A DNA stretch of 18,266 bases, from the IMG/VR virus record IMGVR_UViG_2698536651_000007. One strand, given 5' to 3'. The position numbers were made by a program, and so were the translations under genes. This DNA comes from a virus (taxonomy: Duplodnaviria > Heunggongvirae > Uroviricota > Caudoviricetes). The notes below the pieces were generated by a model, which was not told where the DNA came from, ran no database searches, and saw nothing but the letters and a program-made list of their open reading frames with translations. Position 1 is the stretch's first letter. Each line of letters begins with the position of its first letter. Positions 14,660-16,627 of this stretch are shown piece after piece.

Positions 14660-16627
14660 TTGCACGCCATTGGGTGGGTTAAGCATAAATGTATTCCTGG
14701 TGCTAAATGGCCCGAAATTCAGGCAGAGATGCGCATCTGGAAAAAACGTCGCGAAGGTGAACGCAAGGAAACCGGAAAATACACGTCTGTTGTTGATCTC
14801 GCCCGCGCCAGAGCCAATCAACAGTACACTGAAAATTCAACAGGAAAAATCAGCCCGGTCATTGCTGCCATTCATCGCGAATACAAGCAGACATGGAAAA
14901 CACTGGATGACGAACTGGCCTACGCTCTCTGGCCTAGTGATGTGGATGCCGGAAACATTGACGGCAGCATCCATCGCTGGGCAAAAAAAGAAGTTATCGA
15001 CAACGACCGCGAAGACTGGAAGCGTATCTCGGCATCAATGCGCAAACAGCCTGATGCCCTTCGCTACGACCGCCAAACTATTTTTGGCCTTGTCCGTGAG
15101 CGTCCGATCGACATTCACAAAGATCCCGTAGCACTGAACAAATATATCTGCGAATACCTGACGACAAAGGGCGTGTTTGAGAATGAAGAAACAGACCTGG
15201 GCACTGTTGATGTTCTCCAGTCATCAGAAACACAAACTGATGCAGTGGAAACTGAGGTATCTGATATCCCAAAAAATGAAACCGCGCCGGAAGCTGAACC
15301 ATCTGTAGAGCGTGAGGGGCCGTTCTATTTCCTCTTCGCAGATAAGGACGGAGAAAAATACGGTCGCGCAAACAAACTCTCTGGTCTGGATAAGGCACTG
15401 GCTGCTGGCGCCACTGAAATCACAAAAGAAGAATATTTTGCCCGAAAAAATGGCACATACACGGGCTTACCGCAAAATGTAGATACCGCTGAAGATTCAG
15501 AACAACCAGAGCCGATAAAAGTTACCGCTGACGAAGTAAACAAAATTATGCAGGCAGCCAATATCAGCCAGCCTGACGCCGATAAGTTGCTTGCTGCATC
15601 ACGTGGTGAATTTGTTGAAGGGATTAGTGACCCGAATGATCCGAAATGGGTTAAGGGGCTCCAGACCCGCGATTCTGTGAACCAGAACCAGCATGAATCG
15701 GAACGGAACTACCAAAAAGCGGAACAAAACAGTCCAAATGCGTTACAAAACGAGCCAGAAACGAAACAGCCTGAACCAGTAGCGCAACAGGAAGTGGAAA
15801 AAGTCTGCACCGCCTGCGGTCAGACCGGCGGCGGCAACTGCCCTGATTGTGGCGCGGTGATGGGCGACGCAACATACCAAGAAACATTCGATGAAGAGTA
15901 TCAGGTTGAAGTTCAGGAAGATGATCCGGAGGAAATGGAAGGCGCTGAACATCCACACAAGGAGAACACTGGCGGCAATCAGCATCACAATAGCGATAAT
16001 GAAACTGGCGAGACGGCAGATCACCCAATTAAGGTGAACGGTCATCACGAAATCACATCCACCAGCAGGACGTGTGACCATCTAATGATCGACCTTGAAA
16101 CCATGGGAAAAAATCCTGATGCCCCGATCATCTCAATAGGTGCAATATTTTTCGATCCGCAAACCGGAGATATGGGACCGGAATTTAGTAAGACTATCGA
16201 TCTGGAAACTGCTGGCGGAGTCATTGATCGGGACACCATTAAATGGTGGCTTAAGCAATCACGCGAAGCGCAATCTGCCATTATGACCGATGAAATCCCG
16301 TTAGATGATGCACTGTTACAATTGCGAGAATTTATCGACGAAAACTCCGGTGAATTTTTTGTTCAGGTTTGGGGAAATGGAGCCAACTTCGACAACACGA
16401 TTTTGCGCCGTTCATACGAACGGCAGGGGATCCCCTGCCCGTGGCGTTACTACAACGATCGCGATGTACGCACAATCGTTGAGCTGGGGAAAGCCATAGA
16501 CTTCGATGCCAGAACGGCTATTCCATTCGAAGGTGAGCGCCATAATGCACTTGATGACGCCCGTTACCAGGCAAAATACGTTTCAGTTATCTGGCAAAAA
16601 CTGATCCCGAGTCAGGCTGATTCTTAA
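14660..16627 (+). CDS. Multidomain protein with C-terminal DEDDh (DnaQ-like) 3'-5' exonuclease domain, central acidic linker and CxxC…CxxC zinc ribbon; start uncertain (TTG 14660 or ATG 14726)
   Basis: Exo I motif MIDLETMG (about 16085-16108), Exo II [13 protein letters not shown], Exo III [10 protein letters not shown] (about 16541-16570); zinc ribbon [16 protein letters not shown] (about 15806). Same strand and position as exo/bet-type genes upstream of xis-int. Confidence 0.7.
   Translation: [655 protein letters not shown]

What the first reader, a model, noticed from the sequence alone, without database searches (positions are those of the whole stretch)
14660..16627. Exonuclease gene in the recombination slot encodes a DEDDh 3'-5' exonuclease fused to a zinc ribbon and a long acidic linker, with no clean start codon
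The position upstream of xis-int is where lambdoid phages carry exo/bet or recE/recT, which are 5'-3' exonucleases, but the C-terminal domain here has DnaQ-like Exo I/II/III motifs (DxE, D, H-x4-D). The N-terminal 400 aa include an acidic low-complexity region and a CxxC…CxxC ribbon. The frame opens at a TTG without an obvious SD, and the first ATG (14726) has a poor RBS, so a 5' truncation or pseudogenisation is possible.
Basis: partly seen in the sequence, partly recalled or inferred. Interest (0 to 1): 0.45.

Follow-up and report, generated by a model that had tools for sequence, protein, structure and literature searches.

The report
Truncated prophage exonuclease gene remnant (ydfE)
This is the 3' four-fifths of a very common E. 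coli prophage gene (the full-length form of K-12's ydfE), a RecE-like scaffold protein carrying a 3'-5' DEDDh exonuclease domain; here a deletion has removed its promoter, start codon and first 163 codons, so it is an ordinary, already annotated pseudogene remnant.

Summary
ORF 14660-16627 exists. Its C-terminal domain is a DEDDh 3'-5' exonuclease (Pfam PF16473, E 1.8e-67; all five catalytic residues present; predicted fold closest to phage T4 DexA). A CxxC-x7-CxxC motif and acidic disordered linkers precede it.

There is no clean start because the gene is cut. The window is the right end of the E. coli Qin cryptic prophage. Intact copies of the gene are 823 aa and follow dicB-ydfD in other E. 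coli strains and in active phages (HannyBb, mEp460). Homology in the window begins at codon 164 (base 14644/14645), at a microhomology deletion junction (14642-14646). The deletion also removed the dicB operon and its promoter.

The middle of the protein (full-length aa 246-623) is homologous to the non-catalytic region of RecE, including the same cysteine motif. RecE's 5'-3' PD-(D/E)xK nuclease domain is replaced by the DEDDh domain, and no annealase gene is adjacent.

The family is very common: at least 3,785 of 5,426 complete E. coli genomes carry a copy intact at the breakpoint. It is annotated as exonuclease, as 3'-5' exoribonuclease domain-containing protein, and in Pfam as YdfE_C. It has not been characterised biochemically.

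Verdict: a real feature, correctly read by the first stage, already known, of low interest.

The parts
14644..16627 (+). 5'-truncated remnant (codons 164-823 plus stop) of the 823-aa ydfE-family gene, annotated as RecE-related or 3'-5' exonuclease
   Evidence: 100% identical over window 14644-18266 to E. coli ABW_A32 L004 19635-23257, where the gene is intact at 19147-21618. The protein alignment shows homology starting at Y164. PGAP marks the equivalent ORF in strain 300709 as 'incomplete; missing N-terminus'.
14642..14646 (.). Deletion junction (CCGTA). The left flank is a degraded minus-strand hypothetical gene. The right flank is ydfE codon 163, third base
   Evidence: Window 12175-14646 = L004 13227-15698, and window 14644-18266 = L004 19635-23257, so 3,936 bp are missing. 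Against L001 the window lacks about 1,290-1,295 bp lying between the only two CCGTA copies in that stretch.
14650..14662 (+). GGAG, a 6-nt spacer, then TTG: the fortuitous internal start that gene callers use for the 655-aa ORF
   Evidence: Read from the sequence. In the intact gene these bases are codons P165-E166-L167-K168-L169. The exact 655-aa product is on record in 523 blocks of public assemblies.
14729..14731 (+). First in-frame ATG (ORF codon 24), with a weak ribosome-binding site
14867..15184 (+). Confidently folded helical domain (ORF aa 70-175). Its C-terminal part aligns with RecE aa 278-345
15185..15313 (+). Acidic disordered linker 1 (aa 176-218)
   Evidence: 13 D/E against 2 K/R. 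pLDDT about 40.
15314..15454 (+). Small beta-hairpin/helix domain (aa 219-265)
   Evidence: pLDDT 93-95. Conserved in the family. Aligned only through gaps in RecE.
15580..16022 (+). Segment shared with recE of the Rac prophage at the DNA level (78% over 443 nt). It covers the conserved '[23 protein letters not shown]' block, the cysteine motif and the acidic tail
   Evidence: blastn of ydfE nt 1425-1867 against recE nt 1365-1765. Protein alignment.
15806..15850 (+). CxxC-x7-CxxC putative zinc ribbon (C383, C386, C394, C397)
   Evidence: RecE aa 517-532 carries the same motif. The model is only moderately confident here, pLDDT 58-70. Metal binding is inferred, not shown.
15857..16075 (+). Acidic, His-rich disordered linker 2 (aa 400-472)
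   Evidence: 19 D/E against 3 K/R. pLDDT 36-47.
16079..16594 (+). DEDDh 3'-5' exonuclease domain (aa 474-645). Catalytic residues: D478 (16091-16093), E480 (16097-16099), D578 (16391-16393), H628 (16541-16543), D633 (16556-16558)
   Evidence: PF16473 at E 1.8e-67. phmmer to PDB 8KEL, T4 DexA, at 1.5e-6. Foldseek to 8KEL at E 1.3e-10, then RNase T and oligoribonuclease. The five catalytic residues are invariant in the alignment.
16700..16951 (+). Excisionase gene (context)
   Evidence: PF06806 at 1.6e-31. Annotated as an excisionase family protein in related genomes.
16971..18266 (+). Tyrosine integrase gene of Qin (context). In complete genomes rspB follows it
   Evidence: PF12167 and PF00589..

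Best explanation
The ORF is the 3' 660 codons of the Qin-prophage gene whose intact form encodes an 823-aa protein; the K-12 pseudogene ydfE is that gene's N-terminal fragment.

The intact protein has three parts:
- an N-terminal module specific to this lineage (aa 1 to about 245);
- a non-catalytic middle region shared with RecE, made of a helical domain, acidic disordered linkers and a CxxC-x7-CxxC motif;
- a C-terminal DEDDh (DexA/RNase T-like) 3'-5' exonuclease domain, in the position where RecE has its 5'-3' PD-(D/E)xK domain.

In intact prophages and phages it is the last gene of the DicA-controlled early-left operon (dicB-ydfD-ydfE-xis-int), and no single-strand annealing protein gene is nearby.

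In this window a microhomology-mediated deletion, junction CCGTA at 14642-14646, removed dicC, dicA, ydfABC, dicF, dicB, ydfD, the operon promoter, the ribosome-binding site, the ATG and codons 1-163. The most likely parent is the truncated allele present in 91 complete genomes.

Shown: the identity of the gene, the truncation, the domain architecture and the completeness of the catalytic motifs.

Inferred: the remnant is not expressed and is therefore a pseudogene, and the intact enzyme degrades nucleic acid 3' to 5'. DNA is at least as likely a substrate as RNA, given that T4 DexA is the closest structure.
For: Locus identity:
- The neighbours are Qin genes, ending with xis and int followed by rspB.
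- K-12 ydfE is annotated as a pseudogene at the same position.

Truncation:
- 823-aa homologues follow dicB-ydfD in E. coli ABW_A32 and in phages HannyBb and mEp460.
- The alignment starts at Y164.
- The window is 100% identical to the intact allele from 14644 onward, with 3,936 bp missing.
- PGAP flags the same ORF as 'missing N-terminus'.

DEDDh domain.

RecE relationship:
- NF007259 model positions 271-600 match at 283 bits.
- BLASTP against RecE gives 39% identity over 366 columns, E 2e-61, including the cysteine motif.
- RecE itself carries PF06630 and the PDDEXK domain DUF3799, both absent here.

No annealase gene next to the DEDDh versions.

No sigma-70-like promoter in 13800-17000: 0 found against 4.3 expected from shuffles.

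Parent allele: the DUF977'|ydfE' junction occurs in 91 of 5,426 genomes. The window differs from it by loss of the segment between the only two CCGTA copies in that stretch.
Against: - Non-expression is inferred only from the lost promoter and start. No transcript or protein data were available.
- The remnant has no frameshift or premature stop, and over its length it is identical to an intact allele. The deletion is therefore recent, and sequence decay cannot confirm loss of function.
- A GGAG lies 6 nt before the TTG, so read-through transcripts could be translated.
- Stand-alone homologues of about 180 aa, covering the nuclease domain only, are the commonest form of the family. The domain would therefore probably be active if it were made.
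Confidence: 0.85

Rival explanations
1. The truncated ORF is still a working gene. Read-through transcription plus the fortuitous GGAG-N6-TTG (or the ATG at 14729) would yield an N-terminally shortened but catalytically complete DEDDh nuclease that the host keeps, for example as a DexA/EcD-like nuclease against invading DNA.
For: - The reading frame is intact and all catalytic residues are present.
- GGAG lies 6 nt upstream of the TTG.
- The identical 655-aa ORF is on record in 523 blocks of public assemblies.
- Several independent deletion alleles end within 4 nt of the same base just upstream of this start.
- A stand-alone E. coli DexA homologue (EcD) was reported to protect against T4 (PMC12153337).
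Against: - No promoter-like site was found upstream.
- A terminator-like hairpin sits at 14381-14396.
- The upstream genes are degraded and lie on the opposite strand.
- PGAP treats the ORF as a pseudogene.
- The clustering of breakpoints was ascertained through a look-up that can only return alleles cut inside an 18-nt window, so it is weak evidence.
- EcD is a different protein: its cloning primer begins ATGATTGACACCGAAAC, which encodes MIDTE.
- The DexA residue proposed to read 5hmC, D169, aligns with Ala here.
Confidence: 0.12
2. The ORF is a complete gene with an unusual start, so the protein is naturally about 633-655 aa.
For: Gene callers do output a 655-aa product.
Against: - Homologues in active phages and many genomes are 823 aa and align with no gaps or insertions up to the junction.
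- The window sequence changes abruptly to unrelated minus-strand DNA at 14643/14644.
- ORF residues 1-40 form helices that belong to a domain whose first half is missing.
Confidence: 0.01
3. The C-terminal domain is a divergent RecE/lambda-Exo-type PD-(D/E)xK 5'-3' exonuclease, as the frequent database label 'exodeoxyribonuclease VIII' suggests.
For: Phage records label the gene 'exodeoxyribonuclease VIII'. NF007259 gives a partial hit.
Against: - The NF007259 hit covers only model positions 271-600, the non-catalytic part, at 283 bits against a cutoff of 1269.
- There is no DUF3799/PDDEXK hit, whereas RecE has one.
- The domain matches PF16473 at E 1e-67 and folds like DexA and RNase T.
Confidence: 0.01

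Closest known systems
ydfE of E. coli K-12 (Qin cryptic prophage pseudogene, b1577) and its intact 823-aa alleles (e.g. WP_061362252.1; phages HannyBb, mEp460, Tritos, PhiR42_1)
   Same: Same gene at the same locus, dicB-ydfD-ydfE-xis-int next to rspB. 99.5-100% identical over the retained part.
   Different: K-12 keeps the N-terminal fragment, cut by IS2. This window keeps the C-terminal 660 codons, cut by a deletion at codon 163. The exact junction was not found in any of 5,426 complete genomes.
RecE (exonuclease VIII) of the Rac prophage
   Same: Same slot upstream of xis-int. Homologous non-catalytic middle region (RecE 278-592), including the CxxC-x7-CxxC motif and the acidic tail, with 78% DNA identity over 443 nt. 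The review PMC11611040 describes RecE's N-terminal region as being of unknown function.
   Different: RecE ends in a PD-(D/E)xK 5'-3' nuclease domain (DUF3799) and is followed by recT. This protein ends in a DEDDh 3'-5' domain, has no annealase partner, and has a different first 245 aa with no PF06630.
Phage T4 DexA (exonuclease A; PDB 8KEL/8KEN)
   Same: Closest solved structure by sequence (E 1.5e-6) and by fold (Foldseek E 1.3e-10). All five catalytic residues are conserved.
   Different: DexA is a stand-alone 227-aa protein with extra loops, and identity is only 21-28%. DexA W152 aligns with Tyr and D169 with Ala here.
Rv2179c-like 3'-5' exoribonuclease family (Pfam PF16473)
   Same: Full-length domain match, profile positions 2-177 of 177, at 226.9 bits.
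   Different: Most members are stand-alone proteins of about 180-200 aa. Here the domain is fused to a scaffold of more than 600 aa. Substrate (RNA or DNA) was not tested.
EcD / HREX (E. coli DexA homologue reported to degrade 5hmC DNA; PMC12153337)
   Same: Same DEDDh/DexA-like family, in E. coli.
   Different: EcD is a different, stand-alone protein: its cloning primer encodes MIDTE, where this domain has MIDLET. The proposed 5hmC-reading Asp is not conserved in the alignment.

Membership tests
DEDDh exonuclease, Rv2179c-like/DexA-like (PF16473) | Profile HMM match above the curated threshold over the whole domain | tested here: met
   226.9 bits against a cutoff of 27, profile positions 2-177 of 177.
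DEDDh exonuclease, Rv2179c-like/DexA-like (PF16473) | Exo I D-x-E, Exo II D and Exo III H-x4-D catalytic residues | tested here: met
   D478, E480, D578, H628 and D633. All are invariant in the alignment with DexA D7/E9/D119/H186/D191 (DexA residues from PMC12153337).
DEDDh exonuclease, Rv2179c-like/DexA-like (PF16473) | RNase T/DnaQ-like fold | tested here: met
   AlphaFold2 pLDDT above 90 for aa 472-650. Foldseek top hits are DexA, RNase T, oligoribonuclease, REXO2 and Cap18.
DEDDh exonuclease, Rv2179c-like/DexA-like (PF16473) | 3'-5' exonucleolytic activity and its substrate (DNA or RNA) | not testable with these tools
   Needs purified protein and end-labelled substrates.
RecE / exodeoxyribonuclease VIII (NCBIfam NF007259 equivalog) | Whole-protein score at or above the curated cutoff | tested here: not met
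   283 bits against a cutoff of 1269. Only model positions 271-600 of 877 are matched.
RecE / exodeoxyribonuclease VIII (NCBIfam NF007259 equivalog) | C-terminal PD-(D/E)xK nuclease domain (DUF3799, RecE aa 615-850) | tested here: not met
   No hit in this protein. RecE scores 4.1e-28 in the same search.
RecE / exodeoxyribonuclease VIII (NCBIfam NF007259 equivalog) | N-terminal Exonuc_VIII domain (PF06630) | tested here: not met
   Absent from the intact 823-aa form. Present in RecE and in the 813-aa DEDDh relative of phage vB_EcoS-640R1.
RecE / exodeoxyribonuclease VIII (NCBIfam NF007259 equivalog) | Adjacent recT (two-component recombinase) | tested here: not met
   xis follows directly in the window and in all intact loci examined. 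No annealase family was found among the operon genes.
RecE / exodeoxyribonuclease VIII (NCBIfam NF007259 equivalog) | Shared non-catalytic middle region with the CxxC-x7-CxxC motif | tested here: met
   39% identity over 366 columns, E 2e-61, with the motif conserved. 78% DNA identity over 443 nt.
Intact, expressible protein-coding gene | Native start codon, ribosome-binding site, promoter and complete N-terminus | tested here: not met
   Codons 1-163 and the whole upstream operon are deleted. No promoter-like site was found.
HREX/EcD-type 5hmC-DNA-specific defence exonuclease | Equivalents of DexA W152 and D169, the residues proposed to read 5hmC | tested here: inconclusive
   W152 aligns with Tyr and D169 with Ala, but the loop alignment is unreliable at 28% identity.
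HREX/EcD-type 5hmC-DNA-specific defence exonuclease | Protection against T4-like phages and selective digestion of modified DNA | not testable with these tools
   Needs plaque assays and nuclease assays.

The most novel reading that the evidence does not exclude
The YdfE family would be a natural 'head swap' on the RecE scaffold. The same non-catalytic platform occurs with a 5'-3' PD-(D/E)xK head plus RecT (Rac), with a 3'-5' DexA-like head and no annealase (Qin, mEp460, 640R1), and with no recognisable nuclease head next to gam-bet-exo (PhiR5_2).

On this reading the DEDDh versions are not recombinases. They would be end-processing or anti-foreign-DNA nucleases delivered by that scaffold.

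In addition, the N-terminally truncated ORF in this window might still be translated from the fortuitous GGAG-TTG, and the recurrent deletion end-point just upstream might reflect a hotspot or selection.
Probability: 0.1. Interest if true: 0.5.

Novelty: already known. Interest (0 to 1): 0.15.

Why it matters
For this window it matters little. The ORF is a pseudogene remnant of a very common prophage gene that annotation pipelines already recognise.

The family itself is a modest open question. RecE's large N-terminal region has no known function, although it boosts linear-linear recombination (PMC11611040). Here the same region is coupled to a nuclease of opposite polarity and has no annealase partner. 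Comparing the variants biochemically could show what the scaffold does. No published characterisation of the intact YdfE protein turned up in the library searched.

Tried and rejected
- **Defence-system profiles.** PADLOC returned only a generic Cas-associated DEDDh model at 1.4e-5, which is not evidence of a defence system.
- **Literature.** Searches for ydfE+Qin, for Rv2179c and for RecE+DEDDh+prophage found no characterisation of this protein.
- **Is EcD (PMC12153337) this protein?** No. Its cloning primer encodes MIDTE, so it is a stand-alone homologue.
- **Annealase partner.** PHROG scans of the early-left genes of HannyBb and mEp460 returned only families of unknown function.
- **Promoter scan of 13800-17000.** None found.
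- **Is the recurrent breakpoint an integrase secondary site?** The junction motifs do not recur at the Qin att end.
- **Is the breakpoint IS-mediated?** One allele (L020) has an IS903B end 2-3 nt from the breakpoint. The other alleles carry no IS at the junction, so this is unresolved.
- **Source strain.** No complete E. coli genome carries the window's exact junction.
- **hok/sok.** I looked for an intact hok ORF beside the sok-like RNA hit and found none.
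Full report
**What is in the sequence.** The + strand has an open frame from 14549 to the stop at 16625-16627. The first possible start is the TTG at 14660, giving 655 aa. Pfam places an Rv2179c-like 3'-5' exonuclease domain (PF16473) at aa 474-645, with E 1.8e-67 and 226.9 bits against a threshold of 27. A weak RNase_T hit covers the same stretch. A CxxC-x7-CxxC motif lies at 15806-15850. Two strongly acidic stretches, aa 176-218 and aa 400-472, flank the folded parts. 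The first in-frame ATG is at 14729, not 14726. A GGAG lies 6 nt before the TTG.

**Where the window comes from.** The region is the right end of the E. coli Qin cryptic prophage. The gene order is nohA, cspI, the lysis genes, cspB/cspF, ydfT/ydfU, rem-hokD-relEB, an ISNCY transposase gene (annotated as a partial pseudogene in related genomes), this ORF, an excisionase, a tyrosine integrase, and then rspB in complete genomes. In K-12 the same position holds the pseudogene ydfE, an N-terminal fragment interrupted by IS2.

**Why there is no clean start.**
- In E. coli ABW_A32 the gene is intact: 2,472 nt, 823 aa (WP_061362252.1). It follows dicC/dicA-ydfA-ydfB-ydfC-dicB-ydfD and precedes xis-int.
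- The active phages HannyBb and mEp460 have the same 823-aa gene in the same place.
- The window is 100% identical to ABW_A32 from 14644 to 18266 and from 12175 to 14646, but lacks the 3,936 bp between them.
- The protein alignment shows homology starting at Y164. Everything upstream in the window frame is unrelated.
- The junction reads ...GAAAGTCC|GTATCCGGAG....
- The deletion took out the DicA-controlled promoter region, dicF, dicB, ydfD, the ribosome-binding site, the ATG and codons 1-163.
- PGAP annotates the equivalent ORF in related genomes as 'incomplete; missing N-terminus'.
- The GGAG-N6-TTG that gene callers use is simply codons 165-169 of the intact gene.
- No sigma-70-like promoter is predicted between 13800 and 17000: 0 found against 4.3 expected. 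The upstream DNA is degraded, minus-strand material.

**Likely origin of this allele.** A related truncated allele joins a 5'-truncated, minus-strand DUF977 gene to the same base of ydfE. It occurs in 91 of 5,426 complete genomes. The window equals that allele minus about 1,290-1,295 bp lying between the only two CCGTA pentamers in that stretch. A second microhomology deletion is therefore the simplest origin. The window's exact junction is absent from all 5,426 complete genomes. It is also absent from the eight public contigs I read that encode the identical 655-aa ORF.

**What the protein is.**
- An AlphaFold2 model of the 655-aa ORF, built on a 63-sequence alignment, has several confident parts. 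These are the nuclease domain (aa 472-650, pLDDT above 90), a helical domain (aa 70-175), a small beta-hairpin/helix domain (aa 219-265), and the first 40 residues, which look like an orphaned part of a larger N-terminal domain. The linkers are disordered.
- Foldseek against the PDB returns T4 DexA (8KEL, E 1.3e-10), then RNase T, oligoribonucleases, REXO2, ERI-family nucleases and Cap18. All are DEDDh enzymes, and no PD-(D/E)xK protein appears.
- By sequence DexA is also the only PDB hit. Its catalytic D7, E9, D119, H186 and D191 are invariant in an alignment with this domain and eight stand-alone relatives.
- The nearest characterised structure is thus a DNA exonuclease. The 'exoribonuclease' in the Pfam name should not be read as a substrate assignment.

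**Relationship to RecE.**
- NCBIfam's RecE equivalog model (NF007259) matches aa 78-455 of the ORF against model positions 271-600 of 877. The score is 283 bits, far below the 1269-bit cutoff.
- BLASTP of the intact protein against K-12 RecE aligns aa 262-627 with RecE 278-592: 39% identity overall, E 2e-61. Identity is very high across the '[23 protein letters not shown]' block, the cysteine motif and the acidic tail. That segment is 78% identical at the DNA level.
- RecE additionally has PF06630 at its N-terminus and the PDDEXK domain DUF3799 at aa 615-850. Neither is present here.
- The scaffold is modular. Phage vB_EcoS-640R1 has RecE model positions 1-602 followed by the DEDDh domain. PhiR5_2 has positions 1-598 with no detectable nuclease domain and sits beside gam-bet-exo. 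The Qin/mEp460 type has its own first 245 aa.
- The swap point, near model position 600, lies close to the start of the RecE nuclease domain. The literature places that domain at residues 564-866 and treats the preceding region as dispensable and of unknown function (PMC11611040).
- None of the four DEDDh loci examined has recT, bet or erf nearby. The protein is RecE-related by scaffold, but it is not a RecE and probably not half of a two-component recombinase.

**How common and how well known.**
- The 90%-identity cluster holding the intact protein has 23,183 member sequences.
- 3,785 of 5,426 complete E. coli genomes have a copy intact across the breakpoint.
- PHROG 2082 ('exonuclease') covers it end to end.
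- Public annotation carries Pfam families named after the protein (PF27432 YdfE_C) and product names such as 'RecE-related exodeoxyribonuclease'.
- The nuclease domain alone has 7,834 representatives at E ≤ 1e-10 in the 50%-identity library, mostly stand-alone proteins of about 180-200 aa.
- I found no paper characterising YdfE.
- The one relevant functional lead is a 2025 report that T4 DexA and a stand-alone E. coli homologue, EcD, discriminate 5hmC DNA, and that EcD protects against T4 (PMC12153337). EcD is a different protein. The Asp proposed to read 5hmC is not conserved in my alignment. This remains a hypothesis for the family, not a finding.

**Mechanism and confidence.** I am about 97% confident that this is a 5'-truncated remnant of the ydfE-family gene with a complete DEDDh domain. 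I am about 70-85% confident that it is silent in this strain. The main rival is that read-through transcription and the fortuitous GGAG-TTG still yield an active shortened nuclease. It cannot be excluded, because the frame is undamaged and identical to an intact allele.

**An unexplained detail.** At least six different alleles end within 4 nt of the same base of the gene, nt 488-492. They are the window, L001-type, L009, L018, L014 and L020, and in L020 an IS903B end abuts the breakpoint. The clustering is suggestive, but most of these alleles were found through queries that could only return alleles broken in an 18-nt window. The junctions share only GTA-type microhomology. I therefore record it as unexplained rather than as a hotspot.

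**Verdict.** The feature is ordinary: a known, annotated, very common prophage gene in a truncated state. Interest is low. The residual interest lies in the uncharacterised family, not in this copy.

Noticed in passing
[not shown]
   Followed up: partly
window 9864-12050 (+): A 2.2-kb two-gene cassette replaces the ydfV 3' end and flxA of standard Qin, beside relBE/hokD. PGAP calls both genes 'hypothetical protein'; they are WP_014639476.1 and WP_000354966.1. Pfam gives only sub-threshold HEPN/RES-NTD1 and GNAT hits, and PADLOC gives none. The same cassette, with its relB/ydfV' flank, sits on a resistance plasmid (NZ_CP069974.1) and in 205 complete genomes.
   Followed up: partly
window 13753-13924 (-): Rfam sok antitoxin RNA hit (RF01794, 104 bits against a gathering score of 59), in DNA that is unannotated in related genomes. 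No intact Hok ORF is visible in any frame nearby, so it is probably a decayed hok/sok locus.
   Followed up: partly
L007 4787-7387 (K-12 recE), RecE aa 517-532: RecE itself carries the same CxxC-x7-CxxC motif in its 'unknown function' N-terminal region. The structural review I read does not mention zinc at all. The RecE scaffold occurs with three different C-termini: PDDEXK, DEDDh, and none detected.
   Followed up: partly
window 2395-2780 (-) and 5290-5682 (-): Two cspA-type thermoregulator 5'-UTR hits (RF01766), corresponding to the cspI and cspB leaders of Qin. Ordinary.
   Followed up: no
window 12366-13679 (-): The ISNCY-family transposase ORF here reads as an uninterrupted 437 codons, whereas PGAP marks the homologous gene in several related genomes as partial (missing C-terminus). 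I did not check whether the element has intact ends.
   Followed up: no
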